Shown here one piece after another: positions 20,873 to 55,241 of a stretch of 64,000 nucleotides of DNA (its first letter is position 1; every line of letters begins with the position of its first letter). The translations under genes were made by a program, and so were the position numbers. The stretch comes from a virus. The notes under the pieces were generated by a model. It had not been told where the DNA came from. It made no database searches and worked only from the letters and a program-made list of their open reading frames with translations. The stretch is from IMG/VR virus record IMGVR_UViG_3300027852_000003, positions 1-64,000 of that record; one strand, given 5' to 3'.

Positions 20873-21083
20873 CTTTCTTTCCCTCCTTAAGTTTTCTTTC
20901 GCAAAATGCAATGGCATTGTCTATCGCCGTTTCTAAATCTTCGTGTTGTTGACTCCCCTTCTCCCAACGTAGAAAACTCTCTTCTAAGTAAGAGCCTACT
21001 TCCCAAAGGTTATATTTTATAATCGTTAGCGAGTCGCCGCACAATTCATTAAGATATAACATTTTCTCTTTAAGGCTTTTCAT
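20856..21083 (-). CDS. Hypothetical protein (75 aa)
   Basis: ORF track entry. Confidence 0.55.
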   Translation of the reverse strand: MKSLKEKMLYLNELCGDSLTIIKYNLWEVGSYLEESFLRWEKGSQQHEDLETAIDNAIAFCERKLKEGKKDVINT

Positions 21084-33297: not shown

Positions 33298-34095
33298 ATG
33301 AGGCAAGAGCTTAAAGACCAACTTTATGGAGCTTTCGTTTCGCTTGGAGCTAAACCAGAATTTCTTAATATGGTAGGCTCTTTGAAAAATACCTCTGATG
33401 AAGATATTCTGTCTGATTTAAAAGCACTGAATAATTCTAAAACTGTGGGAATCAACCAGATTGTTGCAAACATGAACATAGAAAAATATGCAAAATCACG
33501 GCTCGGACTTTATGGAATAAAAACTAATTATATTGATTTATGTGGCATGGCTCCAATGCTTGAACTTCTTGAAGATCAGATAGACCGTGTTATTCTTACT
33601 ACTGAGCGAAAATGTTGGTTATTGAGGAAACATCCAAAGTTGTGGAAAATAAGTGGCTTCCGCATTTTTTGGTGCGTTTGGTGTGAAATTTCTTCGTTTG
33701 TTCGCAACGAAATTAGATATTTTCGGCAACATTATTGTAAAAGGCAAACCAGGTTGGATATTTTGAATAGTTTAGAAAAAGAGCTTTACGACGTAGCTAA
33801 TAAAATTGTCGGAGATCTTGGGCCAAGTACGAACAGTTCGATAGCGGCAAATTGTGAAAAATATGTTTCATTTGCCTTTAGAACCAAAGATTTAGCCGAA
33901 ATCAAAAACGTATGGAGCAAGTGGATTAATGCATATGTTGATTTTGCAAAATTAGTCAAGCCAGAAGGTGCTGATATTGATAATAACCCGCATCTTACTA
34001 TTTTTTGGCGGATGAGGCCAGAAATACGAGAGCATGAAAATGAAGTTATCGTTTATTCAAGGCTATTAATTTCAAGGTTCCAGGAACATAAATGA
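33298..34095 (+). CDS. Hypothetical protein (265 aa), insert gene 2
   Basis: GGGGAGAACAATA precedes the ATG at 33298. Contains RYFRQH (an R-x4-H match, a weak HEPN-like hint). Confidence 0.7.
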   Translation: MRQELKDQLYGAFVSLGAKPEFLNMVGSLKNTSDEDILSDLKALNNSKTVGINQIVANMNIEKYAKSRLGLYGIKTNYIDLCGMAPMLELLEDQIDRVILTTERKCWLLRKHPKLWKISGFRIFWCVWCEISSFVRNEIRYFRQHYCKRQTRLDILNSLEKELYDVANKIVGDLGPSTNSSIAANCEKYVSFAFRTKDLAEIKNVWSKWINAYVDFAKLVKPEGADIDNNPHLTIFWRMRPEIREHENEVIVYSRLLISRFQEHK

Positions 34096-35801
34096 AAAAA
34101 CCTTCCGCAAAAATTCTGGAAAGAGCAAAAAAACAGCTTCAGGAAAACTTTGAGGCTTCCAATGCCCTTGTGAAAAAAAAATCTCCTGCTTGGAAAAGCT
34201 ACAGAGATTTGTATCTTTCGCAGCAAGTCGAGAGAGATCATGAATGGGAATCCAATCTGGTAATGCCAAAGGGCGATCAGATTATAGAAACAATCGCTCC
34301 GAGAATAATGGCTGCGATTTTTTCTGTTGCAGACTGGATTACAATAAAAAATCCCGACATAGAACAGGCAGATCTTCTTGCGCTTCAAAAAGAATTTGCC
34401 CATATTCTCGATAGAAAATCAAATTTTTACTTAACCGCTGTAGAATTGTTCAAGGAAGCTTCTACTATAGGAACATCTTTCTGCAAGATATATCCAAAGG
34501 GGCAGTTTCCATTTACGGAGTTTGTGGCGGCCGAAAACTTTGGCCCTGATCCTTCCTGCAATAAGCCGGGAAGAATTGATGACATGCGATACTGCTATCA
34601 TTTGTCCCAGAAAAGCTTGTCTCAACTTTCCCGCTTAAAGGCTCCGTCTGTTGGTTCCGGCCCAGAGAATACAGGTTATTTTTATGAAGGGCTGGAAAAT
34701 GTATATTTTGATCTCGATAAATTGGGAAAAAATAAGGTTTTACAAAAAGATGCCTTTATAGTGAAAGAAAGCGACGGAGGCGAAACAAGCGCAGAAGCGA
34801 CAGGCTCGCCGGTATATGATTTGATCGAATATTGGGGAGAATTTGAAGTTAAAAGTGGAGTATGGGAAGAATATGTTATAACCGCAGTTCTTGGGGGAGA
34901 CAGGATAGAAAACATTATCAGATGTGAGCCTTCTACCAATTATTTTGAAGTGGAAGCAGAAGGGGAAAAAGAATATTACAAGCCTTTTGTTTCTTCTATT
35001 TATCAGATAGTTCCTGGTTCTTTTTATGGAAAAGGAGCTTTGCAGGCGGTAGAATCTCTTATCGTAGAGCAAAAAGAACATCATGATTTGTTTCTTGATC
35101 AGCACAAAAGATCGTTGACAAATATTGTTCAGGTATTGGAAAACTCTGGCTTAACAGAGGATGACTTAATCCGCAAGCCGGATTCCATCTGGTTCCTGAG
35201 GAATCATGATGATGTAAAAATTATTGATACCCCTGAAGTAAATTTTGGGGCATTCGGCAATATGCACAGTATTCTTGACAGAGAAATTGAAAAAACAAGC
35301 AGGGCTACCGCAGAAACAGTTGGCATAGGGCAGTCCAAAAGAGAAACCCTGGGAGAATTTACCGGGTTGATGGCTGCCGCTGAAAAAGTTTTTACTCTGT
35401 TTATTCAGCAGGCCGACAGATTGACTTTACGGCCTTTGGCAGAAAAAACTTTCAATATTCTTAAGCGTGGAAAGGAAGATGGGTTTTTCCAAAATATTGA
35501 GTTTAATTTTGCCGCTACAGCAGTAGAAACTGAATATTCAAAATACAGTAAGCAACAGCAGTTCCCTAATCTTTTGAGGGAAATAGGAGGTATTTTACAG
35601 AATGATCCGACATATCAGTTTGATATTATTAAAATTTTAAAAATGATGGACAGTTTGTATGATTTTAAGGAAACATCCGACTTTGTTAAGCAAAGAGAAG
35701 CGATGATCCCTATTGCTGCTTTGCCGGAGGAAATACGGCCTATTGCGGTTGAAATAATGCAGGAAATCAGCAAGCAGCAAGGCGAGGAGGTTCCAGCATG
35801 A
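34092..35801 (+). CDS. Portal protein (by size and position)
   Basis: 569 aa, downstream of terL and upstream of the scaffold and capsid genes. Confidence 0.7.
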   Translation: MKKPSAKILERAKKQLQENFEASNALVKKKSPAWKSYRDLYLSQQVERDHEWESNLVMPKGDQIIETIAPRIMAAIFSVADWITIKNPDIEQADLLALQKEFAHILDRKSNFYLTAVELFKEASTIGTSFCKIYPKGQFPFTEFVAAENFGPDPSCNKPGRIDDMRYCYHLSQKSLSQLSRLKAPSVGSGPENTGYFYEGLENVYFDLDKLGKNKVLQKDAFIVKESDGGETSAEATGSPVYDLIEYWGEFEVKSGVWEEYVITAVLGGDRIENIIRCEPSTNYFEVEAEGEKEYYKPFVSSIYQIVPGSFYGKGALQAVESLIVEQKEHHDLFLDQHKRSLTNIVQVLENSGLTEDDLIRKPDSIWFLRNHDDVKIIDTPEVNFGAFGNMHSILDREIEKTSRATAETVGIGQSKRETLGEFTGLMAAAEKVFTLFIQQADRLTLRPLAEKTFNILKRGKEDGFFQNIEFNFAATAVETEYSKYSKQQQFPNLLREIGGILQNDPTYQFDIIKILKMMDSLYDFKETSDFVKQREAMIPIAALPEEIRPIAVEIMQEISKQQGEEVPA

Positions 35802-36163
35802 AAGACATGAAGAACAAAAAGGGAGGGATAACGCAAAAACCGGCGACGACAAGGGTAGAAAAGCCGTTAACGGACTTGCAGAGAAAGATTGATAGAGAGG
35901 TAAGAAAAGAACGAGCGGCAAAACTGGAAGATTTCCTTTTTAATACTGAACTTGGAAAATTTTTCATAAAAACATTAGAGGTAAGAAAAGCTGAATTGTG
36001 TCTTCAGGGAATGACAGGCAAGAAAATTACAGATTGGGGAGACTATAGAGAGGGCAGAGGGAGAATTTTAGAAATTGACGATTTATACAATACTGTAATG
36101 GGCGACATTAGATGGTTGAGAAAACTTAGAAATCAGAAGGTACGTTGGAAAAAAGAAATTTAA
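35798..36163 (+). CDS. Hypothetical head-module protein (121 aa)
   Basis: ORF track entry with an ATGA overlap with the portal gene. Confidence 0.65.
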   Translation: MKDMKNKKGGITQKPATTRVEKPLTDLQRKIDREVRKERAAKLEDFLFNTELGKFFIKTLEVRKAELCLQGMTGKKITDWGDYREGRGRILEIDDLYNTVMGDIRWLRKLRNQKVRWKKEI

Positions 36164-37599: not shown

Positions 37600-38544
37600 A
37601 TGGCTGTTATTAGAGCTAATATTTCCAATTTAATGCAAGCAGGGCTTGACCAGATTTTGTTCTCTCCCTGGAAAAAAGCGGATCCTTTCGCGGTCATAAA
37701 TCAGGTTTTCAATGTGTCTTCTTTTGGGCATCAGTATGAAAGATTTATGACTATCGAAGGTGTTCCTCTTTTGTCACAAAAAAATGAAGGGGCAAATTAT
37801 TCTGCTGCGGAACCAGGGGAAGGGTATTACACCGATCTTGAGAGCATTGCATACGGTGTATATACGACTATCACCCATGAAGCGCAGGCAGACGAGAGGT
37901 ATAGTGTTATTTCTCGTTTCCCTAAAGTAATGAGAGAAGCCGCAGAAGCCACTGTTCAGTTTTATGCGTCTTCAGTTTTTACAGGAGGTTTTACTTCGCT
38001 TCCCACATGGCAAAGCGGGAACCGATCTGCAACCGAATATCTTTTCAGCACTTCCCATGCAATGAAAAATGGGAGTACTCAGTCAAATAAACCTTCTACC
38101 GATGCAGATTTAACCGCTACAAGTCTTTGGGCTGCGGTAAATGCTTTTTATACTTTCAAGAATGATGCAGGGTTGCCTTTGGCTATTTCGCCCAAAATTC
38201 TTTTAACCCCGCATCAGTTGCAGCAAAAAGCCACCGAGCTTTTAGACTCCGATAAATACCCGGAAAATGCTGAAAATGCGATTAATGCCCTTAGAAAAAG
38301 AACTGAGATTCAGTCGGTAATCTGGCCATATTGGTTGGGCAATGTTGATGAGGATGCATGGTATTTGCTGGCGGATAAATCGAGTATGGGAAAAGAATAT
38401 CCTCTCCAGTTTCAGTGGAGAGAAAAACCAAGAACAAAAATGACAGTAGAAGATCTGTCCGATAATCTTCTTTATTTCATTTATGAAAGATTTGCCTGCG
38501 GATGGCCTGATTATGTTGGTGCTTACGGTAGCGCAGGAGCATAA
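37600..38544 (+). CDS. Major capsid protein (HK97-fold type, by position, size and general pattern)
   Basis: 314 aa with AAGGAGGTAAAATACA upstream. It follows the scaffold-like genes. Confidence 0.75.
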   Translation: MAVIRANISNLMQAGLDQILFSPWKKADPFAVINQVFNVSSFGHQYERFMTIEGVPLLSQKNEGANYSAAEPGEGYYTDLESIAYGVYTTITHEAQADERYSVISRFPKVMREAAEATVQFYASSVFTGGFTSLPTWQSGNRSATEYLFSTSHAMKNGSTQSNKPSTDADLTATSLWAAVNAFYTFKNDAGLPLAISPKILLTPHQLQQKATELLDSDKYPENAENAINALRKRTEIQSVIWPYWLGNVDEDAWYLLADKSSMGKEYPLQFQWREKPRTKMTVEDLSDNLLYFIYERFACGWPDYVGAYGSAGA

Positions 38545-38566: not shown

Positions 38567-39043
38567 ATGGCAAACTTAGATAATCCATGTGGATTTGAGC
38601 CTTATAACCACGAAGGGAACAGTTCTGCCCCAATTCACTGGTATAAACATTCAGCAAGTGATGCTGCGAAAATTACCAAAGGCGATGCAGTGAGAAAAGA
38701 CTTGGCAAATGCGGGATATATAAAAGCAGCTTCGGCAACAGTAGGCTCCCTTTTGGGAATTGCCGGGACTGCTGCGGCTACTGCTACAGCTGTAGATATT
38801 CCGGTGTACGATTCTCCTGATACGATTTTTACAGGACAATGTTCCGGGGATTCTGCGCAAGCTCTTGTTAACAAGCAGTGCGACATTGAGGGAACATCCG
38901 GGATAATGGAGGTTAATGAAAATGCTACCACGGAAAAAGTTATTACTGTAACCGGGGTACATCCTGCGGATGAGCTTGGAACTAATGGCAGGGTGTTGTT
39001 CAAAATTACAAAGCACCAAAACGCAGGGGATCAAACTGCGTAA
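38567..39043 (+). CDS. Capsid decoration/cement-like protein (DUF2190-like pattern)
   Basis: ITKGDAV...GSLLGIAG...VYDSPDTIFTGQ. The pattern is recalled from DUF2190 proteins and lies directly after the capsid gene. Confidence 0.55.
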   Translation: MANLDNPCGFEPYNHEGNSSAPIHWYKHSASDAAKITKGDAVRKDLANAGYIKAASATVGSLLGIAGTAAATATAVDIPVYDSPDTIFTGQCSGDSAQALVNKQCDIEGTSGIMEVNENATTEKVITVTGVHPADELGTNGRVLFKITKHQNAGDQTA

Positions 39044-39113: not shown

Positions 39114-39710
39114 ATGGCAGTAACAAGATGGAGTTCACAATTACAACCAACTGATGCTACTGCAAAATATGCAGAATTGCGGATTCCCTGGCAGGCTATT
39201 CTTCAGTCCTACAGCACTAAAGATGCTGCCGGAGCTGGATCGATGCTGGGAACTGGCAATGCAAAAAGTGTCGTGGCTGAGGCAAATTCTTCCGGGCTAG
39301 GCGGGCTTGCTCCAGCCACCGGCGATGAATTAGATTTTTTGGTAAAACTTCCCAATGATTTCGATTCTACGGAAGCATCTTACCTGGATGTTTATTACCA
39401 AACTATAGCAAGTGCTACAAAAGGAAACGTGATAAATTGGCAATGCACCTACAACGCAGTCAACCCGAATGCTTCTACCGCTGCGATTGGAGATGCTACT
39501 AGCACATCTGGGATTACTAATCCTTCCGAAAGAACGCTGGCTACCGGGATAAGCGAAACTTTTTTATTCAAGGACACGGTAACTATTGCGGCATCTACTC
39601 TTACGGCAGGTTATGGGATTCATACCCAGTTAACTTGTGGCGGGGATCATGCCGAGGGTGAATTGATTATTCAGGAAGTGGTTTTGAGATACGTAAAGTT
39701 ATGGATGTAG
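39114..39710 (+). CDS. Hypothetical virion-module protein (198 aa)
   Basis: ORF track entry with AAAGGAGGTAATTAGTT upstream. Confidence 0.7.
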   Translation: MAVTRWSSQLQPTDATAKYAELRIPWQAILQSYSTKDAAGAGSMLGTGNAKSVVAEANSSGLGGLAPATGDELDFLVKLPNDFDSTEASYLDVYYQTIASATKGNVINWQCTYNAVNPNASTAAIGDATSTSGITNPSERTLATGISETFLFKDTVTIAASTLTAGYGIHTQLTCGGDHAEGELIIQEVVLRYVKLWM

Positions 39711-39771
39711 GAAGGGAAAAGGTGGCTTAAAAAAATCTATTTAAATTCAAAAAAAAGGAGAGGTTATTCCA

Positions 39772-39828
39772 AAAAGGGGATTTTCGATGTATAATAAAAA
39801 TATGTTGGGGATCCCCTTTTGTTTTTTT
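39772..39828 (+). terminator. Rho-independent terminator closing the capsid operon
   Basis: AAAAGGGGAT (39772-39781) pairs with ATCCCCTTTT (39811-39820); alternatively, the local palindrome GGGGATCCCC forms. The run TTTTGTTTTTTT spans 39817-39828, its first four T overlapping the 3' stem arm. Confidence 0.6.
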
Positions 39829-39892
39829 ATGTAATAATAAACTGAGAGGCGGTTGTTTAGACATCTACGATAACCTTCTTTTTGAGGATAAA

Positions 39893-40000
39893 ATGATAAA
39901 TTTGGTAGTTATTTTTTTATTTAGTGTTGCAGTTATTGGAATATTGACAGGAATAATATTTTCGGCACATCTATTTTATAGGATTATTAAGGGAACTTAA
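39893..40000 (+). CDS. Possible 35-aa hydrophobic peptide
   Basis: GAGGATAAA lies upstream of the ATG. Sequence: MINLVVIFLFSVAVIGILTGIIFSAHLFYRIIKGT. Confidence 0.3.
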   Translation: MINLVVIFLFSVAVIGILTGIIFSAHLFYRIIKGT

Positions 40001-40077
40001 CATTCTCACTTGAGTGGCGAGAGGAACGAACATCCGAATCGAAGCAGTTGTTAGTAATTTTTTACAGAAAGGATACT

Positions 40078-41040
40078 GTGAAAATAGTTATTTTTGATAG
40101 ATACAAGACTTTTGATTTTCATCACGGGCATATGGTTTCTCATCTTGGGAAAAAGCATGAAGTTCTTTACGTTGATAAACCAATCCCTCAAGATCAAATA
40201 AGAATTTTGATGCGAGGGAATGATCTGGCATGGTTTGAGTTTTGTGATGATATGTTCCGGGAAGCAATGCGGCATCCCAAGGAGTCAAAGGTAGTTTGTA
40301 GGCTTCATTCAATGGAATTATTTACTCCTGTTCCCTTGAACACTTACTGGTTGAATTGCGACAGGCTTTTACTTGTGAGCAAAGAAATAGAAATACTGAT
40401 GAAAAGAGTAAAAGAAAACTCAAAAATTCCGCTTTCTTCTATGGATATTTTGCCGAATGGTGTTGATTTCAATTTATTTAAGTGGAAGGGAAAACAGTAT
40501 GGCAATAAAATAGCCTGGATTGGCTGGATTAATCATAAAAAAAATCCACAAATGATTTTATATCTGGCAGACGCTCTGAAGAAAAAAGGCATGGATTATA
40601 CTTTCCATGCCATTGGTCGCTTTCAGGAACCCAGGTATGAGTTGTATTTATCTGATATGATAAAAAAGATGAACCTATCTGATACCGTGTTTTTTGAAGG
40701 CTGGGTAGATAACAAAAATCTTCCCGATTGGCTTGAAGATAAGTCCTATAATCTTTCTACTTCTCTTTTTGAATCTTTCGGCAATTCTATAATAGAAAGT
40801 ATGGGAAGCGGTTTAATCCCGTTAATTCACGATTTTTATGGATCAGGTGAAAGATTTGGCAAGGATTGTATTTTTACCGGGATAGATAGTTTTATTAATT
40901 TGCTGGAACATTTTGAGAAATTAAGCAATGAAGAAAAACAGCAGTTAAGCAAGAAAAAGAGAAAAATGGTTGGGCAATATGAAATCGGAAAACAGTTAAA
41001 AAAGTTGGACTTTATAATTGAATCGGTGATGGAAGAATGA
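40078..41040 (+). CDS. Glycosyltransferase, GT-B fold (GT4/GT1-like)
   Basis: ESFGNSIIESMGSGLIP is an E-x7-E motif. The start is uncertain (GTG 40078 or TTG 40048). Confidence 0.75.
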   Translation: MKIVIFDRYKTFDFHHGHMVSHLGKKHEVLYVDKPIPQDQIRILMRGNDLAWFEFCDDMFREAMRHPKESKVVCRLHSMELFTPVPLNTYWLNCDRLLLVSKEIEILMKRVKENSKIPLSSMDILPNGVDFNLFKWKGKQYGNKIAWIGWINHKKNPQMILYLADALKKKGMDYTFHAIGRFQEPRYELYLSDMIKKMNLSDTVFFEGWVDNKNLPDWLEDKSYNLSTSLFESFGNSIIESMGSGLIPLIHDFYGSGERFGKDCIFTGIDSFINLLEHFEKLSNEEKQQLSKKKRKMVGQYEIGKQLKKLDFIIESVMEE

Positions 41041-42848
41041 AAAATTTTTATATTATATCCCCTACTTATAATGCCTCTAAATATATAAATGCCTGTATTT
41101 TATCTGTCAAAGATCAGGACACTAAAGGGATAATGGCAAAGCATATTGTTGTTGATGATGCTTCGGCCGACAGAACATGGGAAAAGATACAGAGCCACGA
41201 TGGGAGTATAGAGGCATACAGGCTGGAAAATAATTCCGGTTCTCCTCTTTCTTCGTTCCTCTGTGGAATATCAAAAATAGAAAACTTGGGAGACGATGAT
41301 ATTATTGCCTGGCTTGATGGTGATGATTGGCTTTTAGGGACAAAGGCCTTACAAGAAATTGTAACCGCCTATAGAAAATCATCTGCGGATATGGTTTATA
41401 GCCAGCATATTACTTATCACGGGCAAAAGGATGGGATACCAAACGTAACAATGGGGATCTCCACACCACTAAGTGATCCGACTCTGGCTCGTTATGCAAA
41501 AGTCGCTTATTCTCACTTTAGAACATTCAGGGCTGGAATGTTAAAAAATGTGCCTCCAGATACTTTGTTTGACCCATCTACCGGCAAACATTGGCAGACT
41601 TGCGGGGATTCGGCTTTGTTTATCCCTATGCTGGAAACAGCCAAAAAGGTAAGTTTCGTAAATCGCCCCTTATATGTTTATAACCGTGAGACAGATGGAA
41701 GCGAAGATAAAAAACCTGAATATTTTTCCAAAATGAATACTGTAAGAGTAAGAGATAGGGATACTTGCTTGAATAATAAAATGGAGTGGCACAACAAAAC
41801 ATATCGGCTTCCACCTACAAGACGATTCAAGGCAGACGTTGGGCGTATATGCGACCTAAGTTGCGAATTTTGTTACTATTCTCATATGGAAAAAAAGGAT
41901 AGGTGGTTTCTAACCTGGGAAGAGATGGAAAAAGTTTTGAGAAATGGAGTAGCCAGGGGAAATCTTTTTTGCGACTTTAGCGGGGGAGAACCAACAATTA
42001 TCCCTGATTTTGCCAAATGGATTTTTGGAGCAAGAAAGTTGGGATTATACCCTTGCGTTATTACTCATGGACAAAAAATAGAACCTAAATTGGAAGAATA
42101 TTGGGACTCAGGGCTTGAAGATATTCTTTTTTCTATTCATGGCTCTGAAAATATTCATAATAAGGTAACAAACACAAAAAATGGTTTCGCAAAAGTAAAC
42201 AAAGCTATAGAAAAATGCAATAGCAATAATTTTAAATTTCGCACCAATACTGTTTTAACCAGTAATTTTGAAGATTTAATAGGATTGGCTAATTATTTTG
42301 CTGAGGTTAAGCCACTAATCAGCAATTTTATTAACTTTAATCCCTATGATGAATGGTCTTGTATGGACAAGCAGGATTTTCAGGGAAAAAATTCCCAAAT
42401 TGCTCCTTTTCTAAAAAAAGCAATCGATATTTTAACTGCTGCCGGGGTTATGGTCAACATTCGATATTTTCCTATGTGTCTGCTGAAAGGATATGAAAAA
42501 CATATTTGCAATATTCCTCAAGTGATGCACGATGGCTATGAATGGGATTACAGCATTTTGCCTAAAGAGTTTTCGCCATATCTTGAGTATTCCAAGTGGC
42601 TTTCCGACAGAATAAATACGTTTGCTCCAAAATGTTTGGAATGTTCAATCCGAACAATATGCGGCGGGCTAAATAGCGGATATTACAAAAATATAGGGGA
42701 CTTAGAGTTAGCCCCTTATTCGGATAATGAGTTAACCGACCCACTTTATTTCAGGGTTAATGTTCCCCCCAAACAATTAAATACCTATGTAGGGCATAAT
42801 TTTTGGTGGTGCAAGGAGAGATATGCAGGGTTACGAAACAAAACTTAA
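41037..42848 (+). CDS. Fusion protein: N-terminal GT2-type glycosyltransferase plus C-terminal radical-SAM/SPASM-like domain
   Basis: GT-A signatures SPTYNASKYI, VVDDASAD and LDGDDW. Radical-SAM motif CDLSCEFC (CxxxCxxC), SGGEPT, and C-terminal CLECSIRTICGG. Confidence 0.85.
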   Translation: MKNFYIISPTYNASKYINACILSVKDQDTKGIMAKHIVVDDASADRTWEKIQSHDGSIEAYRLENNSGSPLSSFLCGISKIENLGDDDIIAWLDGDDWLLGTKALQEIVTAYRKSSADMVYSQHITYHGQKDGIPNVTMGISTPLSDPTLARYAKVAYSHFRTFRAGMLKNVPPDTLFDPSTGKHWQTCGDSALFIPMLETAKKVSFVNRPLYVYNRETDGSEDKKPEYFSKMNTVRVRDRDTCLNNKMEWHNKTYRLPPTRRFKADVGRICDLSCEFCYYSHMEKKDRWFLTWEEMEKVLRNGVARGNLFCDFSGGEPTIIPDFAKWIFGARKLGLYPCVITHGQKIEPKLEEYWDSGLEDILFSIHGSENIHNKVTNTKNGFAKVNKAIEKCNSNNFKFRTNTVLTSNFEDLIGLANYFAEVKPLISNFINFNPYDEWSCMDKQDFQGKNSQIAPFLKKAIDILTAAGVMVNIRYFPMCLLKGYEKHICNIPQVMHDGYEWDYSILPKEFSPYLEYSKWLSDRINTFAPKCLECSIRTICGGLNSGYYKNIGDLELAPYSDNELTDPLYFRVNVPPKQLNTYVGHNFWWCKERYAGLRNKT

Positions 42849-43524
42849 GCTTCCAGCTAACTTGTCTTTGGAAAATATGAGTGATTTGCCTAAAATTTTT
42901 ATAGGAACTCCATGGAGCGTTCCTTATATCCCAGCAGCTTTCACTCTTTCTTTGCGGAATATGCTGGTTCCCTTACCCCATGTTTTCGATTTTGTTGCTG
43001 CAAGACACGTTGTCGATGCCAGAAACGCAATAGTCAAGTTAGCTATCGATAACAATTTTGATTTTGTTATGATGCTTGATGCTGATCAATCCTTCCCTTC
43101 TAATTTTTTCATAGAATTATGGAAAATCGTTCAGCAAGACCCGGAGAATAATATTGCTACAGGATGGGCAATAATTAAGACTGGGAAATATGCGGGCAAA
43201 ACAAGCGTTTGCAAATGGAAAAATGGAGATTTTTATGCAGAAGACCCCAAAAAAGTTAGCATACGTAAGAAACCTTTCCAGACCGATGGTTTCGGGACGT
43301 GTGGTTTCCTATGCAGTACCAAAATTTTTAAGCGACTCACATTTCCCTGGTTCACCGACATCAACATTATTTGTGAGGAAAACAGATTGGGACAATTTTA
43401 TGTTGCGACAGAGTTTGCAATGGGACAAGACCTTTGTTTCAGCATTAAAGCTAAAGAGGTTGGAGCAAGATTGATTTGCCATCCCAAAATGAAAATGCCG
43501 CATCAGGTGTTGCAAAATATATAA
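42823..43524 (+). CDS. GT-A fold glycosyltransferase-like protein
   Basis: FDFVMMLDADQSFP is a DxD motif. AAGGAGAGAT lies upstream of the ATG. Confidence 0.65.
   Translation: MQGYETKLKLPANLSLENMSDLPKIFIGTPWSVPYIPAAFTLSLRNMLVPLPHVFDFVAARHVVDARNAIVKLAIDNNFDFVMMLDADQSFPSNFFIELWKIVQQDPENNIATGWAIIKTGKYAGKTSVCKWKNGDFYAEDPKKVSIRKKPFQTDGFGTCGFLCSTKIFKRLTFPWFTDINIICEENRLGQFYVATEFAMGQDLCFSIKAKEVGARLICHPKMKMPHQVLQNI
43503..43520. repeat. 18-bp direct repeat TCAGGTGTTGCAAAATAT, copy 1 (copy 2 at 43880..43897)
   Basis: Exact match. Copy 1 is the 3' end of the glycosyltransferase gene. Confidence 0.9.
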
Positions 43525-43719: not shown

Positions 43720-43851
43720 ACGTAAACCTGATGATTAAAATGATAAATTTTATAACCCAGACACGCTATCAAGCCTCGTTATTTACAACGTGGCTTGACG
43801 GGCTTTGTCTTTGGTAAGATTTTACCGTCACAGACTTAGGCATAGGCTTTT

Positions 43852-43879
43852 CCCCGTCTCTTACAAGACGGGGTTTACC
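43852..43879 (+). terminator. Hairpin CCCCGTCT-CTTACA-AGACGGGG followed by TTTACC
   Basis: 8-bp GC-rich stem at 43852-43859/43866-43873. Confidence 0.5.
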
Positions 43880-43968
43880 TCAGGTGTTGCAAAATATTTA
43901 ACGCCAAAATCAGCGGCATAATCTTTTCGTGCCAGTTGAATTTGGTATTAGGATGAGGAGTTTTGTAG

Positions 43969-44186: not shown

Positions 44187-44705
44187 TTGCCAAGTTCAAG
44201 ACCATTTTTTTTAGAATATTTTTGCGATGTTTTAGTAGCGAATAAACCAAAATCTATTCTGGATATTGGTTGCGGACATGGGAAATTCGGTTTCTTGGCC
44301 AGAGAATACACGGATGTGTGGAACGGAGATTATTGGAAAAGGAAGGTACAGATTGACGCTGTAGAAATTTTTCCCAAATATATAGGAAAATTACAAAAAG
44401 AAATTTATGACAATATTTACATAGATGATGCCCTAAAGGTTCTTCCAAAATTGGATAAATACGAAATGATTGTTTGTGCCGATGTTTTGGAGCATTTTTC
44501 TACTGACAGGGGCATTGTTTTGTTGGATTCCATCAAAGTAAAGTCTGATTTTGGAATGGTAATAACGCCTGTAAAAGTATCAAAACAGAAAGAAGAATAT
44601 GGGAACAAATACGAAACTCATTGTTCTCAGTGGAGCAGAGAAAGGCTGGAAAATTGGGGAATAGTGTATAGAAGTAATAATGCCTATCTTTTGGAGGTAA
44701 GGTGA
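44187..44705 (+). CDS. Class I SAM-dependent methyltransferase
   Basis: ILDIGCGHGKFG motif I and VCADVLEH motif. Apparent TTG start. Confidence 0.75.
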   Translation: MPSSRPFFLEYFCDVLVANKPKSILDIGCGHGKFGFLAREYTDVWNGDYWKRKVQIDAVEIFPKYIGKLQKEIYDNIYIDDALKVLPKLDKYEMIVCADVLEHFSTDRGIVLLDSIKVKSDFGMVITPVKVSKQKEEYGNKYETHCSQWSRERLENWGIVYRSNNAYLLEVR

Positions 44706-46554: not shown

Positions 46555-47208
46555 GTGGCAAACAATTCTATTCTAACTTTGGCCGAAATTCAGGCAGATG
46601 TTTACTCTAATCTTGACGAAATATCTGACGAAACAGGGTTTTTTAGTGATGCCGAAATTACTGCTCTTGCCAATGAAGCTCAATTCAGGTTGAATCTTTT
46701 AACCGAATGTGTTTGGGCATTAGTAACCAGAAATGTATATAAAAATCAAACTTATCTTGAGCTTCCTGACGACACTCTGAGGATAAAAAGAGTTTTTTAT
46801 GAGGAATCAGACAACGAGAGGGTACTCGATTGGGAAACATGGGGTTTTTTGGATGACAATAATGAAGGATGGGAGGGCGATTCCTGGGGAGTCCCGGATT
46901 ATTTTTTTCTTTACGACGTAAACAAAAAGCTTTACATGGATAAACCTTTTCAGGCAGATACCACAATCCAGATTGATTATGTGCAAATTCCGGTAGAGCT
47001 TTCTCTCTCTACTGATGTTTCTGCTCTAGACAGTTCGCTGCATGATTGCATAGTATTATTTTGTATGTATAAATTAACGATGAAAGAGATGGACAGCAGC
47101 AAGATAGCCGAAGCAAAAGGTTATCTTAATGAATTTTATTCTAAAGCAACCGAGTTCAAGAAGCCAAGTTTGAAACGTAAAAGAGGAAGACAGAGCAGGT
47201 TGGGATAA
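46555..47208 (+). CDS. Neck/adaptor-like protein (217 aa), GTG start
   Basis: ORF track entry. Confidence 0.65.
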   Translation: MANNSILTLAEIQADVYSNLDEISDETGFFSDAEITALANEAQFRLNLLTECVWALVTRNVYKNQTYLELPDDTLRIKRVFYEESDNERVLDWETWGFLDDNNEGWEGDSWGVPDYFFLYDVNKKLYMDKPFQADTTIQIDYVQIPVELSLSTDVSALDSSLHDCIVLFCMYKLTMKEMDSSKIAEAKGYLNEFYSKATEFKKPSLKRKRGRQSRLG

Positions 47209-48348: not shown

Positions 48349-50112
48349 ATGGCGATTAAACAAGTTACGGTAGAAAAGATAGGGCAGAATGATTTTGATT
48401 TTTATGATAATCCTGCCAGTAAAACATTCTCCAGAACTACCAGTATCGGAGGTTCTCAAACAATAAACAAATTTGGATATGTGGTGGATGTTTTATGGGC
48501 ATACGGGAATGGAACTGCTTATACTGACGCTGCCATATCTTCGGCACTTACAGCAGTAGGGTCTTCCAATAAATGTATTTTCCTTCTCTATCCCGGTACG
48601 TGGACAATATCAAATAATATAACGATTACCTCCAATATCGAACTCTTGGTTCCTGCCGGGGCAACCATTTCTGTTGATTCTGGGAAAACTTTTACTATCG
48701 GCGGTTCATTAAATGCCGGGATATATCCAATTTTCAGCGGGGCGGGAACGGTGGCTTTTTCTTCCGGGATTAATCTTGCGACATATCCTGAATGGTGGGA
48801 TAAAACCACTGTTGCTGAATCGATACAGGCTGCTGTAGATGTTTTATACGCTTGCGGAGGCGGGGATATAAAATTGACCCGTTTTGATTATGATCTTGGA
48901 CTGGTCGGAGTAAATGTAAAAGACAAAGTCTCTATAACGGCCAGTGAGGGAATTGATTTTCAGCGTACCTCTACCGCCGCTGGAGCCGCCAGAACGGTTG
49001 TAACTTACACAGGGACAGGGTATGCCTTTAATATTGGCGATGGTTCGTATGATTGCAGAGGAGCTGTAATCTCCGGGTTTGAAATATTTGGGGATAGCAC
49101 TGGAGCCGGGGGTATTCGTATAAGCAGCGATGCTGGTAGTAGTTGCAGTGGTAATTTAATCAAGGATATGGCAATAAATGGAATTGCCGGAACCGGGATT
49201 GATTTGGTAAATTATTGCTGGAGTAACAAAATAGAAAACCCGCACATCAAGCATTGCACTACAGCCATTGATTTGCAGGAGGCGGCGAACGACACAACCA
49301 TATATGCCCCAAGTATTCATACATGTACTACCGGCATCAGACTTGGAAAAGGATCGGGGACAGAGCAATATGGGATTAGAGTTATAGCTCCCGTGATAGA
49401 ACAATGCACCACTGGTATTTTGTCTAATGCTCCTACAAAAATATGGACGATGACAGCCCCTTACTTTGAGGACTGCACTTCCTCTTTAACGATAGCAGGT
49501 GGCGGAGTAATTAATTGCTTTGGAGGAAACTTTGACATCCCCAGTGCCGCACCTTACGGAATTTTAATTTCCGGTGGAGCCGTTGTCAATCTCCTCGGAA
49601 TAGTTTTTTCGAGTGCTAGCTCAAGTAACAATTGCATATCTATCACTGGCGCACCCGAAGTTGACGGCGTTATTTCAGCCGCAAATCTGTCCGGCAGGAA
49701 TTTGGTGAGTATCGCTGACGATACAAATTTAAGAAATTTAAGAATACGAGATGAGTATGCAAATGAGGTTACTGACTATACTACCAGGCATAACACTTAT
49801 TTCGCAGGGGCTTACGACGAGTCATGGAGAGGGTTTTACATAAAAGGAGACGATCACCCAAGAGTTGCCATGGGAAGTAATATGATAATGATGGGAGATG
49901 GAACAATAGCTCCCAACGCCCAGGTGTGGGCATCGTCCCATTTGTTTACTCTACAGGGTGATACGAGTGCTAAAATCGGAAGTGGGACATGGGATACAGG
50001 GCATATCCAATTAGGGGATTATCATATCTGGGTTGAAAGTGGCAAGTTGATGATTAAGAATGGCGCGCCCACTGGTGCCGGTCAAGGAACAGTGATAGGA
50101 ACACAAACCTAA
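48349..50112 (+). CDS. Tailspike with a pectate-lyase-like beta-helix (probable depolymerase)
   Basis: Shares the N-terminal anchor. YGNGTAYTDAAISSAL...LLYPGTWTISNNITITSNIELLVPAGATI and repeated G-x-I motifs are typical of right-handed beta-helix spikes. Confidence 0.7.
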   Translation: MAIKQVTVEKIGQNDFDFYDNPASKTFSRTTSIGGSQTINKFGYVVDVLWAYGNGTAYTDAAISSALTAVGSSNKCIFLLYPGTWTISNNITITSNIELLVPAGATISVDSGKTFTIGGSLNAGIYPIFSGAGTVAFSSGINLATYPEWWDKTTVAESIQAAVDVLYACGGGDIKLTRFDYDLGLVGVNVKDKVSITASEGIDFQRTSTAAGAARTVVTYTGTGYAFNIGDGSYDCRGAVISGFEIFGDSTGAGGIRISSDAGSSCSGNLIKDMAINGIAGTGIDLVNYCWSNKIENPHIKHCTTAIDLQEAANDTTIYAPSIHTCTTGIRLGKGSGTEQYGIRVIAPVIEQCTTGILSNAPTKIWTMTAPYFEDCTSSLTIAGGGVINCFGGNFDIPSAAPYGILISGGAVVNLLGIVFSSASSSNNCISITGAPEVDGVISAANLSGRNLVSIADDTNLRNLRIRDEYANEVTDYTTRHNTYFAGAYDESWRGFYIKGDDHPRVAMGSNMIMMGDGTIAPNAQVWASSHLFTLQGDTSAKIGSGTWDTGHIQLGDYHIWVESGKLMIKNGAPTGAGQGTVIGTQT

Positions 50113-50126
50113 AAAAGTTGGGAATA

Positions 50127-55225: not shown

Positions 55226-55241
55226 AAGTAGGAGCATTAAA

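What the first reader, a model, noticed from the sequence alone, without database searches (positions are those of the whole stretch)
41037..42848. Single-polypeptide fusion of a GT2 glycosyltransferase with a radical-SAM/SPASM-like domain
Residues about 1-230 carry GT-A/GT2 hallmarks (YIISPTYNASKYI, VVDDASADRT, WLDGDDW). Residues about 270-600 carry the radical-SAM cluster motif CDLSCEFCYY (CxxxCxxC) and the SAM-binding FSGGEPTIIP. They also carry a C-terminal CLECSIRTICGG (Cx2Cx5CxG) typical of SPASM/twitch auxiliary Fe-S domains. Coupling sugar transfer and radical chemistry in one chain implies a concerted two-step modification of one substrate. I do not recognise a characterised enzyme with this architecture.
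Basis: partly seen in the sequence, partly recalled or inferred. Interest (0 to 1): 0.75.

Follow-up and report, generated by a model that had tools for sequence, protein, structure and literature searches.

The report
Phage glycosyltransferase fused to radical-SAM enzyme
An uncultured phage encodes, right after its capsid gene, one protein that joins a sugar-transferring enzyme to an uncharacterised radical-SAM enzyme, probably to build and chemically tailor a glycan on the virus particle.

Summary
ORF 41037-42848 (+) encodes 603 aa with all six quoted motifs. Pfam finds GT2 at residues 6-170 and Radical_SAM at 268-415. It is not a frameshift artefact: identical protein in two independent assemblies, and colinear full-length homologues at 33-84% identity.

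AlphaFold gives a confident two-domain model (pLDDT 93, pTM 0.90): a GT-A fold like TarS/TarP plus a radical-SAM partial barrel. The radical-SAM module has seven invariant cysteines, enough for the SAM cluster and one auxiliary cluster. That is twitch-like, not canonical SPASM.

The module defines a large uncharacterised family. About half the members collected here are multidomain. They are fused to GT-A domains in both orders, or encoded next to one.

The window is a phage. The gene lies in a GT4 / GT2-rSAM / GT-A-like / methyltransferase cassette directly after the major capsid gene. Cassettes with this rSAM sit after the capsid gene in at least two, probably three, phage lineages. One bacterial homologue lies in a flagellar locus.

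Best reading: a bifunctional glycan-building and tailoring enzyme of a virion-glycosylation cassette. The radical chemistry and the acceptor are inferred, not shown. I rate it a new variant of a known kind, interest about 0.65.

The parts
41037..42848 (+). Bifunctional GT2-radical SAM ORF, 603 aa
   Evidence: Single ORF. Pfam GT2 plus Radical_SAM. Identical protein in two assemblies and colinear homologues. AF2 pLDDT 93.3, pTM 0.90.
41037..41741 (+). GT2 (GT-A fold) domain, residues 1-235
   Evidence: PF00535 E 3e-17. PDB sequence hit to TarS over residues 4-221. Foldseek hits to TarS, TarP, K4CP and RmlT. Domain limits from hmmsearch.
41316..41327 (+). DXD metal/nucleotide-sugar motif, D94-G-D96-D97
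   Evidence: D94, D96 and D97 invariant in 10 full-length homologues. Aligns with the TarS DSDD.
41607..41609 (+). Asp191, candidate catalytic base of the GT domain
   Evidence: Invariant G190-D191. D191 aligns with TarS D178 in the phmmer alignment. The catalytic-base role of D178 is recalled from the TarS literature, not read here.
41742..41810 (+). Inter-domain linker, residues 236-258
   Evidence: Lower pLDDT around residues 221-250. Conserved PxxRRFK entry into the rSAM domain, with P260 and R263 invariant.
41811..42776 (+). Radical-SAM module, residues 259-580: partial barrel plus C-terminal cluster domain
   Evidence: PF04055 E 8e-20. Family profile limits. AF2 of the domain alone pLDDT 94.6. 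Foldseek to BlsE, GDGT-MAS, SuiB and viperin.
41850..41873 (+). CX3CX2C radical-SAM cluster motif (C272, C276, C279)
   Evidence: Invariant in 72 family members.
41982..41990 (+). GGE SAM-binding motif (G316 G317 E318)
   Evidence: Invariant in 72 family members.
42477..42479 (+). Cys481, fourth candidate ligand of the auxiliary cluster
   Evidence: Invariant. Lies in the conserved RYFPxC motif.
42633..42662 (+). CX2CX5C (C533, C536, C542), auxiliary-cluster motif
   Evidence: Invariant. Aligned to the SPASM CX2CX5C of SuiB by profile search.
40078..41040 (+). GT4 (GT-B fold) glycosyltransferase. 320 aa from the GTG start used by the source gene call; the longest ORF starts at 40048.
   Evidence: PF00534 E 1e-13. 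Conserved directly upstream of the fusion in L001, L003 and L095. Stop overlaps the fusion's ATG.
42823..43524 (+). 233-aa probable GT-A-like protein (phrog_1574; DAD motif)
   Evidence: Weak GT2 hits in Pfam. Rhamnosyltransferase subfamily hit, E 2e-5. phrog_1574. Conserved in L001, L003 and L095.
44187..44705 (+). 172-aa class I SAM-dependent methyltransferase
   Evidence: PF13489 E 2.7e-8. A methyltransferase accompanies the cassette in L001, L003, L006, L014 and L098.
37600..38544 (+). Major capsid protein (Phage_capsid_4 / Mu gpT-like); candidate acceptor
   Evidence: PHROG head-protein hits. PF25209 on the same protein.
38567..39043 (+). 158-aa protein of unknown function between the MCP gene and the cassette; candidate head accessory protein or acceptor
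   Evidence: Conserved position: 140-158 aa genes in L001, L003 and L095. No family hit.
39114..39710 (+). 198-aa Ser/Thr/Ala/Gly-rich protein (S+T 20%); candidate head accessory protein or acceptor
   Evidence: Homologues next to the MCP gene in L003 (E 5e-17) and L095 (E 2e-13). Composition.
39773..39819 (+). Terminator-like hairpin with T-run in the 337-nt gap before the cassette
   Evidence: scan_promoters_terminators: 20-pair stem followed by TGTTTTTTT.

Best explanation
Context. The window is the genome of an uncultured tailed phage with an SU10-like portal and adaptor. ORF 41037-42848 is a soluble cytoplasmic bifunctional enzyme. It belongs to a four-gene glycosylation cassette: GT4, GT2-rSAM, a GT-A-like 233-aa protein, and a methyltransferase. 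The cassette sits in the late, structural operon directly after the major capsid gene and two small conserved genes.

Proposed mechanism.
(1) The N-terminal GT-A/GT2 domain binds an NDP-sugar through its DXD-bound metal. It transfers the sugar with inversion, using Asp191 as base. The motifs are shown; the activity is inferred.
(2) The C-terminal domain reductively cleaves SAM at the C272/C276/C279 [4Fe-4S] cluster. The resulting 5'-deoxyadenosyl radical abstracts a hydrogen from a carbon of the same sugar. That sugar could be the NDP-sugar donor before transfer, or the residue just installed. The closest solved relative, BlsE, acts in the second way, on the sugar of the product of a glycosyltransferase.
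(3) A single auxiliary [4Fe-4S] cluster is held by four Cys: C481, C533, C536 and C542. It serves as the electron conduit that resolves the substrate radical. The outcome would be oxidation to a keto sugar, epimerisation, decarboxylation or deoxygenation. The chemistry is inferred only.
(4) GT4, the GT-A-like protein and the methyltransferase extend and O-methylate the glycan.

Most likely acceptor. A virion protein: the capsid protein, or the 158-aa or 198-aa proteins encoded between it and the cassette. This would give a glycan coat, as described for mycobacteriophages.

My sub-probabilities. Real fusion 0.98. Both domains catalytically competent 0.85. The rSAM works on the sugar handled by a GT-A partner 0.7. 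The acceptor is a virion protein 0.5.
For: Fusion and motifs.

Fold: AF2 pLDDT 93.3 and pTM 0.90 for the whole chain, 94.6 for the rSAM half. The GT half matches TarS, TarP and K4CP. The rSAM half matches BlsE best, then GDGT-MAS, SuiB and viperin. A family profile against PDB sequences ranks the sugar-modifying BlsE first (E 1e-29) and aligns the CX2CX5C with the SuiB SPASM motif.

Functional coupling with GT-A:
- The ~315-aa rSAM module occurs alone and in the architectures rSAM-GT2, rSAM-GT2-TPR(-rSAM), GT2-rSAM, GT2_5-rSAM, MTase-GT2-rSAM and TPR-GT2-rSAM.
- 107 of 226 collected members are longer than 450 aa.
- Of 66 multidomain members, 32 hit PF00535, further ones hit other GT2-like families, and 11 hit TPR families.
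- Stand-alone members lie next to a GT-A gene in L009, L014, L096 and L098.

Phage structural context:
- Terminase, portal, MCP and adaptor are identified in the window.
- The order MCP / small / small / GT4 / GT2-rSAM is kept in relatives whose fusion protein is only 45-47% identical to the window's (L003, L095).
- In HK97-capsid phages the order is protease / MCP / GT / MTase / rSAM-SPASM / rSAM (L013), and the same cassette is followed by the tail tube gene (L014).
- L098 has MCP, then Caps_synth / MTase / rSAM / GT2.

Bacterial homologues look like cytoplasmic protein glycosylation:
- P0016 (rSAM-GT2) follows flgK-flgL-fliW-csrA and an NDP-sugar epimerase/dehydratase, and precedes GT9 and TPR-GT2 genes.
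- P0046 sits in MTase-GT4-MTase-[GT2_5-rSAM]-GT4-GT2 beside a 2545-aa NHL-repeat protein.
- No Pfam family typical of Wzx, Wzy, ABC exporters or GtrA is listed for any called gene in these loci.

No cassette protein has a TM-like segment: maximum Kyte-Doolittle 19-residue score 1.55.

Precedent for phage virion glycosylation of capsid and tail tube: Freeman et al. 2023, as cited in PMC11256854 and PMC12619734.
Against: - No experiment and no virion proteomics exist. The acceptor is inferred from gene position only.
- The head-tail junction is also a common insertion site for cargo ('moron') genes.
- A terminator-like hairpin separates the cassette from the capsid genes.
- The mycobacteriophage Maravista, whose close relatives are the precedent, carries its GT genes near the 3' end of the genome, not in the structural module. 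Position is therefore not a hallmark.
- The closest GT structures, TarS and TarP, glycosylate wall teichoic acid, not protein.
- PHROG labels the GT half 'GtrB-like O-antigen conversion', weakly (E 2e-6).
- The rSAM half resembles peptide-modifying SuiB, SkfB and PqqE almost as closely as sugar- or nucleotide-modifying BlsE, viperin and MoaA. Sugar versus protein as its substrate is not settled.
- TM-scores of 0.59 or less mean no known chemistry can be transferred by homology.
- I had no coordinates, so I could not check the cluster geometry or whether the two active sites face each other.
Confidence: 0.5

Rival explanations
1. Host-surface glycan modification. The cassette alters a host envelope polymer (teichoic acid, LPS/O-antigen, capsule or S-layer glycan) during infection or lysogeny. 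The purpose would be to block superinfection or change serotype, as prophage TarP and the Gtr systems do.
For: The best structural and sequence matches of the GT half are the wall-teichoic-acid glycosyltransferases TarS and TarP. There are weak PHROG hits to 'GtrB-like O-antigen conversion'. Some bacterial family members sit in generic GT4/GT2 clusters that could make polysaccharide (L096, L099, L009). The cassette is bounded by non-coding gaps and a terminator-like hairpin, like a moron.
Against: No cassette protein has a TM segment. No Pfam family typical of a flippase, GtrA/GtrC, Wzx/Wzy or an ABC exporter is listed near any homologue inspected. The cassette lies in the late structural operon in at least two, probably three, phage lineages. 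No integrase or repressor was seen among the ORFs scanned, though the scan was not exhaustive.
Confidence: 0.22
2. Protein-directed radical chemistry. The GT domain glycosylates a virion or other protein. The rSAM domain acts on the protein itself, for example by side-chain oxidation, a thioether or C-C crosslink, or epimerisation. It would behave as a SPASM/twitch RiPP-type maturase rather than acting on the sugar.
For: SuiB, SkfB, PqqE, CteB and anSME are among the nearest solved relatives. The C-terminal CX2CX5C aligns with the SuiB SPASM motif. TPR domains, which bind proteins, are fused to 11 of 66 multidomain family members.
Against: Neither Pfam nor the AF2 model shows an extra peptide-recognition (RRE/PqqD-like) domain in the chain. 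No small precursor-like gene is conserved next to it. The constant partner across very different contexts is a GT-A domain or gene, in either order. That pattern is expected if the shared ligand is the sugar. The top profile hit is the sugar enzyme BlsE.
Confidence: 0.12
3. DNA hypermodification. The GTs glycosylate a modified base (5hmC, 5hmU or 5-hydroxycytosine) in phage DNA, and the rSAM tailors the DNA-linked sugar to evade restriction.
For: Phage GT-A and GT-B enzymes that build glycans on 5hmC are documented, and TarP is named there as the PDB structural homologue of the phage GT-A enzymes (bioRxiv 10.1101/2023.12.21.572611; PMC13326640). Cultured Campylobacter phages that carry a stand-alone family member have hypermodified DNA, although of the 7-deazaguanine type.
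Against: No thymidylate-synthase-like hydroxymethylase, TET/5mYOX or C5-methyltransferase was found among the window ORFs scanned; only an N6/N4 methylase. Neither DNA-glycosylation paper mentions a radical-SAM partner. Bacterial homologues lie in flagellar or surface-protein loci. The cassette sits among structural genes, not replication genes.
Confidence: 0.07
4. Assembly or annotation artefact. Two adjacent genes (GT2 and rSAM) were joined by a sequencing frameshift or a lost stop codon.
For: In several other loci the two activities are separate adjacent genes (L009, L014, L096, L098).
Against: The same 603-aa protein occurs in independent JGI and ENA assemblies. Nine colinear full-length homologues exist at 33-84% identity with a conserved linker. 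Further fused architectures exist in both orders. AF2 packs the two domains with pTM 0.90.
Confidence: 0.01

Closest known systems
BlsE, cytosylglucuronate decarboxylase of blasticidin S biosynthesis (PDB 7VOB/7VOC; TIGR04466)
   Same: It is the best hit of the rSAM family profile among solved structures (E 1e-29 over the SAM-binding core) and the top Foldseek hit. From general knowledge: it is a radical-SAM enzyme that abstracts H from a sugar carbon of the product of a glycosyltransferase (BlsD). That is the same logical order as GT then rSAM.
   Different: Only the N-terminal ~160 residues align by sequence. Identity is 14% in the structural alignment, and TM is 0.56-0.59. The TIGR04466 score is 32 bits against a cut-off of 400. 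BlsE is not fused to a GT and acts on a free nucleoside, not a glycan. The window protein's C-terminal four-Cys domain is not matched.
SPASM/twitch radical-SAM enzymes (SuiB, SkfB, PqqE, anSME, BtrN)
   Same: They have a CX3CX2C core followed by a C-terminal Cys-rich auxiliary Fe-S domain. The CX2CX5C aligns with the SuiB SPASM motif. Foldseek probability is 1.0 to SuiB, SkfB and anSME.
   Different: Pfam SPASM PF13186 is not detected. Only four invariant extra Cys are present instead of seven, so one cluster at most. There is no RRE/peptide-binding domain. The obligate partner is a glycosyltransferase rather than a precursor peptide.
TarS / TarP wall-teichoic-acid GlcNAc transferases (GT2, GT-A fold; TarP is prophage-encoded)
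   Same: They are the best sequence and structure matches of residues 1-235. The DXD motif is shared, and the window's Asp191 aligns with TarS D178. They are soluble GT-A enzymes acting in the cytoplasm.
   Different: Identity is 15-19%. TarS and TarP carry C-terminal trimerisation or carbohydrate-binding domains, not a radical-SAM domain. Their acceptor is poly-ribitol phosphate. No teichoic-acid context is seen here.
Mycobacteriophage virion glycosylation (Che8 and relatives; Freeman et al. 2023, cited in PMC11256854 and PMC12619734)
   Same: Phage-encoded glycosyltransferases that decorate capsid and tail-tube subunits with glycans. The cassette here is likewise a set of phage GTs, in the structural module.
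   Different: As far as the papers available here show, those systems have no radical-SAM component. In the related phage Maravista the GT genes lie near the 3' end of the genome. The present phage is unrelated (SU10-like). Glycosylation here is only inferred.
Stand-alone radical-SAM proteins of Campylobacter phages CP220/CPt10 (phrog_27238)
   Same: True family members: 30% identity over 325 residues, all seven Cys conserved, E 1e-52 to the family profile. They come from cultured phages.
   Different: They are not fused to a GT and no GT is adjacent. An NDP-sugar epimerase and sugar deacetylases lie about 3 kb away. Their function is unknown (PMC2853527).

Membership tests
Radical SAM superfamily (PF04055) | CX3CX2C motif providing three Cys to the SAM-binding [4Fe-4S] cluster | tested here: met
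   C272, C276 and C279 are present and invariant in 72 homologues. PF04055 scores 72 bits against a cut-off of 29.5.
Radical SAM superfamily (PF04055) | GGE SAM-binding motif and partial (beta/alpha)6 TIM-barrel fold | tested here: met
   G316 G317 E318 are invariant. The AF2 model has alternating strand/helix elements with pLDDT 94.6. It superposes on GDGT-MAS, SuiB and a viperin-like enzyme over 220-232 columns at 3.4-3.5 A rmsd.
Radical SAM superfamily (PF04055) | Reductive cleavage of SAM to 5'-deoxyadenosyl radical | not testable with these tools
   Needs anaerobic reconstitution and a 5'-dA assay.
SPASM subfamily (PF13186 / TIGR04085) | Seven-Cys CX9-15GX4C...CX2CX5CX3C...C motif binding two auxiliary [4Fe-4S] clusters | tested here: not met
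   No PF13186 hit at E <= 0.1. Only C481, C533, C536 and C542 are invariant. C491 is common but is Val in most of the phage clade. The position of the CX3C fourth Cys is not Cys.
Twitch-type radical SAM enzymes (BtrN-like, one auxiliary cluster) | Abbreviated C-terminal domain with one auxiliary [4Fe-4S] cluster ligated by three or four Cys | tested here: inconclusive
   Four invariant Cys are available, and the CX2CX5C aligns with the SPASM motif of SuiB. I could not inspect model coordinates to check that the four thiols converge. BtrN itself is a weak hit (E 1e-5, core only).
Glycosyltransferase family 2 (GT-A fold, inverting; PF00535) | Pfam model above gathering score, and GT-A fold | tested here: met
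   63.5 bits against a cut-off of 23.3. Foldseek probability 1.0 to TarS, TarP, K4CP, RmlT and a Leptospira GT (target-normalised TM up to 0.84).
Glycosyltransferase family 2 (GT-A fold, inverting; PF00535) | DXD metal-binding motif and catalytic-base Asp | tested here: met
   D94-G-D96-D97 and G190-D191 are invariant in 10 full-length homologues. They align with DSDD and with D178 of TarS. That D178 is the TarS catalytic base is recalled, not read here.
GtrB-like bactoprenol glucosyltransferase (O-antigen conversion) | GT2 domain followed by C-terminal transmembrane helices; works with the GtrA flippase and GtrC | tested here: not met
   Only weak PHROG hits over residues 1-127 (E 2e-6). No TM-like segment: maximum KD19 1.55. 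No Pfam family suggesting GtrA or GtrC is listed for any neighbour.
BlsE / cytosylglucuronate decarboxylase (TIGR04466) | Equivalog model score at or above the 400-bit cut-off | tested here: not met
   32.1 bits. The structural alignment is 14% identical.
Heme-pathway radical SAMs AhbC/AhbD/NirJ (labels often given to viral radical-SAM 'AMGs') | Equivalog model scores at or above 500-650 bits | tested here: not met
   32-43 bits.
Phage virion-glycosylation systems | Glycan covalently attached to capsid or tail proteins, dependent on phage-encoded GTs | not testable with these tools
   Only positional evidence: the cassette follows the MCP gene in at least two, probably three, phage lineages. 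Needs intact-mass or glycoproteomic analysis of virions.

The most novel reading that the evidence does not exclude
The ~315-aa radical-SAM module is the founding member of a large, unstudied class of glycan-tailoring radical enzymes that work obligatorily with GT-A glycosyltransferases. In phages of anaerobes it would install a chemically unprecedented sugar on capsid proteins. Examples could be a radical-derived keto, deoxy, branched or cross-linked residue, or a sugar-protein C-C or C-S link. The result would be a virion glycan coat made by oxygen-sensitive chemistry. Bacteria would use the same device on flagellin and giant surface proteins.
Probability: 0.3. Interest if true: 0.85.

Novelty: new variant of a known kind. 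Interest (0 to 1): 0.65.

Why it matters
Enzymology. If the reading is right, it links two large enzyme superfamilies in one catalytic unit. It also defines a sizeable, unnamed radical-SAM family: 796 clusters at 50% identity with E <= 1e-30 to the fusion profile. Its conserved partnership with GT-A domains gives a direct handle on its substrate, which must be a sugar. Radical tailoring of protein-linked or polymer-linked glycans is almost unexplored.

Phage biology. It would extend virion glycosylation from actinobacteriophages to unrelated phages of anaerobic habitats. It would add radical chemistry to the repertoire, with consequences for phage stability, adsorption and immune or defence recognition.

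Annotation. It warns that viral radical-SAM genes labelled as heme-pathway (ahbD-like) auxiliary metabolic genes may in fact be glycan enzymes.

Tractability. Cultured Campylobacter phages (CP220, CPt10) carry a stand-alone member, so the family can be studied experimentally.

Tried and rejected
- Frameshift artefact. Rejected: identical protein in two assemblies, colinear homologues, conserved linker.
- Canonical SPASM. Rejected: no PF13186 hit and only four invariant extra Cys.
- Assignment to a named rSAM family (MoaA, PqqE, viperin, BlsE, AhbC/D, NirJ, anSME, HxsC). All NCBIfam scores are 5- to 20-fold below their cut-offs.
- GtrB-type O-antigen conversion. Rejected for lack of TM helices and partners.
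- DNA-glycosylation pathway. I scanned 30 early- and late-region ORFs for hydroxymethylase, TET or C5-MTase and found none. The scan did not cover every small ORF.
- Identity of the 158-aa and 198-aa proteins. No Pfam, PHROG or PDB sequence hit.
- IMG/VR search for the fusion. It found only three rSAM-family loci and hundreds of stand-alone phage GT2 homologues at 26-34% identity, but no fused copy. hmmsearch of those loci found only three with a weak rSAM-profile hit (E about 1e-10) 2-6 kb from the GT2 homologue.
- BFVD. No viral model has both domains.
- Literature. Ten full-text searches were run. None returned a paper on a GT-radical SAM fusion or on this rSAM family. Freeman et al. 2023 is not held in the library and is cited second-hand.
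- Nearest isolate phage. Portal tblastn gives only 23-24% identity, to cyanophages. There are no tRNAs. The host remains unknown.
Cluster geometry and the inter-domain active-site distance could not be measured.

Full report
1. THE OBSERVATION

The ORF is as described: window 41037..42848 on the + strand, ATG start, 603 codons. All six quoted motifs are present, at residues 5-17, 38-47, 92-98, 272-281, 314-323 and 533-544.

Pfam places Glycos_transf_2 on residues 6-170 (63.5 bits, cut-off 23.3, E 3e-17). It places Radical_SAM on residues 268-415 (72 bits, cut-off 29.5, E 8e-20).

The start codon overlaps the stop of the upstream gene (ATGA). The downstream gene overlaps the 3' end by 26 nt.

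- The identical protein is called on independent JGI and ENA assemblies.
- There is an 84% homologue. Eight more colinear full-length homologues lie at 33-47% identity.
- The inter-domain linker is conserved, with P260 and R263 invariant.

2. ANATOMY OF THE PROTEIN

Overall model. AlphaFold2 with a 72-sequence alignment gives a confident two-domain model: mean pLDDT 93.3, pTM 0.90. The rSAM half alone gives pLDDT 94.6.

GT half.
- It is a GT-A fold. The nearest solved structures are TarS, TarP, the K4 chondroitin polymerase and RmlT.
- D40/D41, the DXD (D94-G-D96-D97) and G190-D191 are invariant among full-length homologues.
- In the phmmer alignment, D191 pairs with TarS D178 and the DXD pairs with the TarS DSDD. 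I recall D178 as the TarS catalytic base; no TarS paper was read here.
- The motifs of an active, metal-dependent, inverting GT2 are therefore intact.

rSAM half.
- C272/C276/C279 and G316-G317-E318 are invariant in 72 family members.
- The model superposes on the cores of GDGT-MAS, SuiB and a viperin-like enzyme over about 220-230 columns at 3.4-3.5 A rmsd.
- No solved structure exceeds a query-normalised TM of 0.59 or 24% identity.
- Every NCBIfam equivalog (MoaA, PqqE, viperin, BlsE, AhbC/D, NirJ, anSME, HxsC and others) scores 5- to 20-fold below its cut-off.
- A profile of the module searched against PDB sequences ranks BlsE, the cytosylglucuronate decarboxylase, first (E 1e-29, core only). 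SuiB is second (E 3e-24). The SuiB alignment runs through to the C-terminal CX2CX5C, which lands on the SPASM motif of SuiB.

Auxiliary cluster.
- Outside the SAM-cluster triad, exactly four cysteines are invariant: C481 (in RYFPxC), C533, C536 and C542.
- C491 is frequent, but it is Val in most of the phage clade. C442 is not conserved.
- Pfam SPASM is not detected.
- The C-terminal domain can therefore hold one fully Cys-ligated auxiliary [4Fe-4S] cluster. It is twitch-like or a truncated SPASM, not canonical SPASM.
- I could not check the geometry, because model coordinates are not exposed to scripts.

3. THE rSAM MODULE IS A FAMILY WHOSE CONSTANT PARTNER IS A GT-A ENZYME

Family size. A profile of ten full-length fusions found 796 clusters (50%-identity representatives) at E <= 1e-30 among 1.84 billion proteins.

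Architectures. Using domain HMMs built from the alignment, the module (~315 aa) occurs in these forms:
- alone (330-390 aa);
- N-terminal to other domains: rSAM-GT2, rSAM-GT2-TPR, and even rSAM-GT2-TPR-rSAM;
- C-terminal to other domains: GT2-rSAM, GT2_5-rSAM, MTase-GT2-rSAM, TPR-GT2-rSAM.

Counts. 107 of 226 collected members exceed 450 aa. Among 66 multidomain members, 32 match PF00535, further ones match Glyco_tranf_2_3, 2_2 or 2_5, and 11 carry TPR repeats.

Independent fusions. The GT domains involved are not mutually close. My GT-domain HMM does not detect the GT2 of P0016, for example. Both domain orders occur. The fusion has therefore arisen repeatedly.

Adjacency. Where the module is a separate gene, a GT-A gene is its immediate neighbour:
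- L009/L010: GT2-like, then rSAM.
- L014: rSAM, then a nucleotide-diphospho-sugar transferase.
- L096: rSAM, then GT2.
- L098: rSAM, then GT2.

This is classical Rosetta-stone evidence that the rSAM and a GT-A act on the same thing. The simplest shared ligand is the sugar.

4. GENOMIC CONTEXT: A PHAGE, AND A CAPSID-PROXIMAL GLYCOSYLATION CASSETTE

The window is a phage genome. Late genes on the + strand:
- large terminase, 31156-32811;
- portal, 34092-35801;
- major capsid protein, 37600-38544 (Phage_capsid_4 / Mu gpT-like);
- SU10-type adaptor, 46555-47208;
- internal virion protein, 50118-52214.

Early genes on the - strand include RecT/YqaJ, an HNH endonuclease and an N6/N4 DNA methylase.

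The fusion sits in a run of genes:
- GT4, 40078-41040;
- GT2-rSAM;
- a 233-aa GT-A-like protein, 42823-43524;
- a methyltransferase, 44187-44705.

This run follows the capsid gene and two small genes: 158 aa, and 198 aa with 20% Ser+Thr.

The order MCP / small / small / GT4 / GT2-rSAM (with the GT-A-like gene downstream) is kept in phages whose fusion protein is 45-47% identical to the window's. L003 and L095 both have an SU10-type portal.

The rSAM family reappears in the same position in phages with a different, HK97-type capsid:
- L013: prohead protease / MCP / GT-like / methyltransferase / rSAM-SPASM / rSAM.
- L014: the same cassette, followed by the tail tube gene.
- L098: MCP, then four small genes, then Caps_synth-type GT / methyltransferase / rSAM / GT2, seen on six contigs.

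Bacterial relatives point to cytoplasmic protein glycosylation rather than exported polysaccharide:
- P0016 (rSAM-GT2, 43% identical in the rSAM half) follows flgK-flgL-fliW-csrA and an NDP-sugar epimerase/dehydratase. It precedes GT9 and TPR-GT2-TPR genes.
- P0046 sits in MTase-GT4-MTase-[GT2_5-rSAM]-GT4-GT2 beside a 2545-aa NHL-repeat protein.
- P0022 precedes TPR and TPR-GT2 genes.
- No Pfam family typical of Wzx, Wzy, an ABC exporter or GtrA is listed for any called gene in these loci.

None of the window's cassette proteins has a TM-like segment.

5. MOST LIKELY FUNCTION

Shown:
- a real bifunctional chain with intact catalytic motifs for both activities;
- membership of an rSAM family tied to GT-A enzymes;
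- location in a conserved phage cassette next to the capsid gene.

Inferred:
- The GT2 domain transfers a sugar from an NDP-sugar.
- The rSAM domain abstracts a hydrogen from that same sugar. It does so either on the nucleotide sugar before transfer, or on the installed residue.
- The Cys4 auxiliary cluster acts as the electron conduit. This would fit oxidation to a keto sugar, epimerisation, decarboxylation or deoxygenation.
- GT4, the GT-A-like protein and the methyltransferase complete the glycan.
- The acceptor is a virion protein: the MCP, p158 or p198.

Bearing of the nearest relatives:
- BlsE acts on the sugar of the product of a glycosyltransferase. That fits the 'tailor after transfer' order.
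- Nucleotide-binding relatives (viperin, MoaA) are also among the nearest structures. That keeps the 'make the donor' order open.

Virion glycosylation has a precedent in mycobacteriophages, where glycans sit on capsid and tail-tube subunits (Freeman et al. 2023, cited in PMC11256854 and PMC12619734).

6. RIVALS

(i) Host-envelope modification, TarP- or Gtr-like.
- For: TarS/TarP similarity and a weak PHROG label, and the moron-like boundaries of the cassette.
- Against: no TM proteins, no flippase or exporter family listed, and the recurrent structural-module position.

(ii) Protein-directed radical chemistry.
- For: SuiB, SkfB and PqqE similarity, and TPR fusions.
- Against: no RRE domain detected, and the constant GT-A partnership.

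(iii) DNA hypermodification.
- For: phage GT-A and GT-B enzymes do glycosylate 5hmC (bioRxiv 10.1101/2023.12.21.572611).
- Against: I found no hydroxymethylase, TET or C5-MTase in the ORFs scanned. That literature mentions no rSAM.

(iv) Artefact. Effectively excluded.

7. COMPARISON WITH WHAT IS KNOWN, AND NOVELTY

Each ingredient is known in kind: GT2 enzymes, sugar-tailoring radical-SAM enzymes (BlsE, and from general knowledge DesII, BtrN and AviX12), and phage virion glycosylation.

What I could not find described anywhere:
- this rSAM family;
- its fusion or obligate pairing with GT-A enzymes;
- any radical-SAM component in a phage glycosylation cassette.

The negative evidence:
- no NCBIfam equivalog;
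- no close PDB relative;
- no two-domain match among BFVD viral models, with query-normalised TM at most 0.35;
- no fused copy among the 80 loci kept from the IMG/VR scan;
- no relevant paper from ten full-text searches.

The architecture is not rare in metagenomes. So it is 'uncharacterised', not 'unique'.

I rate it a new variant of a known kind, with interest 0.65. The fusion itself is solid. It gives a clear experimental hypothesis for a large orphan rSAM family and for phage glycobiology. The chemistry and the acceptor remain inferences.

8. CAVEATS

- The acceptor assignment rests on gene position.
- Contexts were sampled for about a dozen loci, not the whole family.
- The window ORF scan for DNA-modification genes was not exhaustive.
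- The host is unknown. The portal is at most 24% identical to any isolate phage, and there are no tRNAs.

Noticed in passing
window 1-64000: The whole window is an uncultured phage genome with two divergent arms. Minus-strand early genes run from 399 to 24549 and plus-strand late genes from 29483 to 64000. GC skew changes sign at about 24.5-26 kb. There are no tRNA genes, and the portal is only 23-24% identical to any isolate phage (cyanophages).
   Followed up: partly
window 39711-40047 and 43720-43968: Two non-coding gaps bracket most of the glycosylation cassette. The first holds a strong terminator-like hairpin with a T-run (39773-39819). The second holds the hairpin CCCCGTCTCTTACAAGACGGGG. 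This suggests separate transcriptional control or a moron-like insertion.
   Followed up: partly
window 56576-62080, and 48349-50112, 52224-53834, 55131-56579: A 1834-aa ORF and three ORFs of 482-587 aa in the tail region have no Pfam or PHROG hit at all.
   Followed up: no
window 38567-39043 and 39114-39710: Two small proteins between the capsid gene and the cassette. The 198-aa protein has sequence homologues in the same position in relatives whose fusion protein is 45-47% identical; for the 158-aa protein only the position and size are kept there. Neither has a detectable family or PDB relative. The 198-aa protein is 20% Ser+Thr. They are possible decoration proteins or glycan acceptors.
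   Followed up: partly
window 14503-15228 (-), 16963-17397 (-), 18916-20917 (-), 8827-9444 (-): The early region encodes an N6/N4 DNA methylase, an HNH endonuclease, a RecT/YqaJ recombination pair and a DnaJ-type zinc-finger protein. No DNA polymerase, integrase or pyrimidine hydroxymethylase was seen among the ORFs scanned.
   Followed up: partly
P0013, P0014, P0121 (metagenomic proteins); P0007: Some bacterial relatives carry two copies of the rSAM module in one chain, flanking GT2 and TPR domains (rSAM-GT2-TPR-rSAM, about 1040 aa). P0007 is a triple fusion, methyltransferase-GT2-rSAM (1026 aa).
   Followed up: partly
L004 10001-11656 (JGI sample 3300002182): A bacterium from a JGI sample numbered next to the phage's (3300002180) encodes an rSAM-GT2 protein. 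It lies immediately after flgK-flgL-fliW-csrA and an NDP-sugar epimerase, at the spot where I recall the flagellin gene follows csrA in Bacillus-type operons. Its rSAM half is 43% identical to the phage's. This could be the host or donor lineage, and the locus could be a flagellin glycosylation island.
   Followed up: partly
L008 4932-5948 (Campylobacter phage CPt10, NC_027996.1 140159-141175): Cultured Campylobacter phages (CP220, CPt10 and relatives) carry a stand-alone member of this rSAM family, 30% identical with all seven Cys conserved. These phages encode 11-12 radical-SAM proteins of unknown function (PMC2853527). A nucleotide-sugar epimerase and two sugar deacetylases lie about 3 kb downstream.
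   Followed up: partly
L003 4055-4330; L095 5086-5346: Relatives of this phage encode a Cpn10/GroES-like co-chaperonin between the portal and scaffold/capsid genes. The corresponding window gene (35798-36163) was not scanned against any family library.
   Followed up: no
general (annotation practice): This family gives weak hits to AhbC, AhbD and NirJ heme-pathway models, far below their cut-offs. Viral radical-SAM genes reported as ahbD-like auxiliary metabolic genes (for example in PMC13452462) may include mis-labelled glycan-tailoring enzymes of this kind.
   Followed up: no
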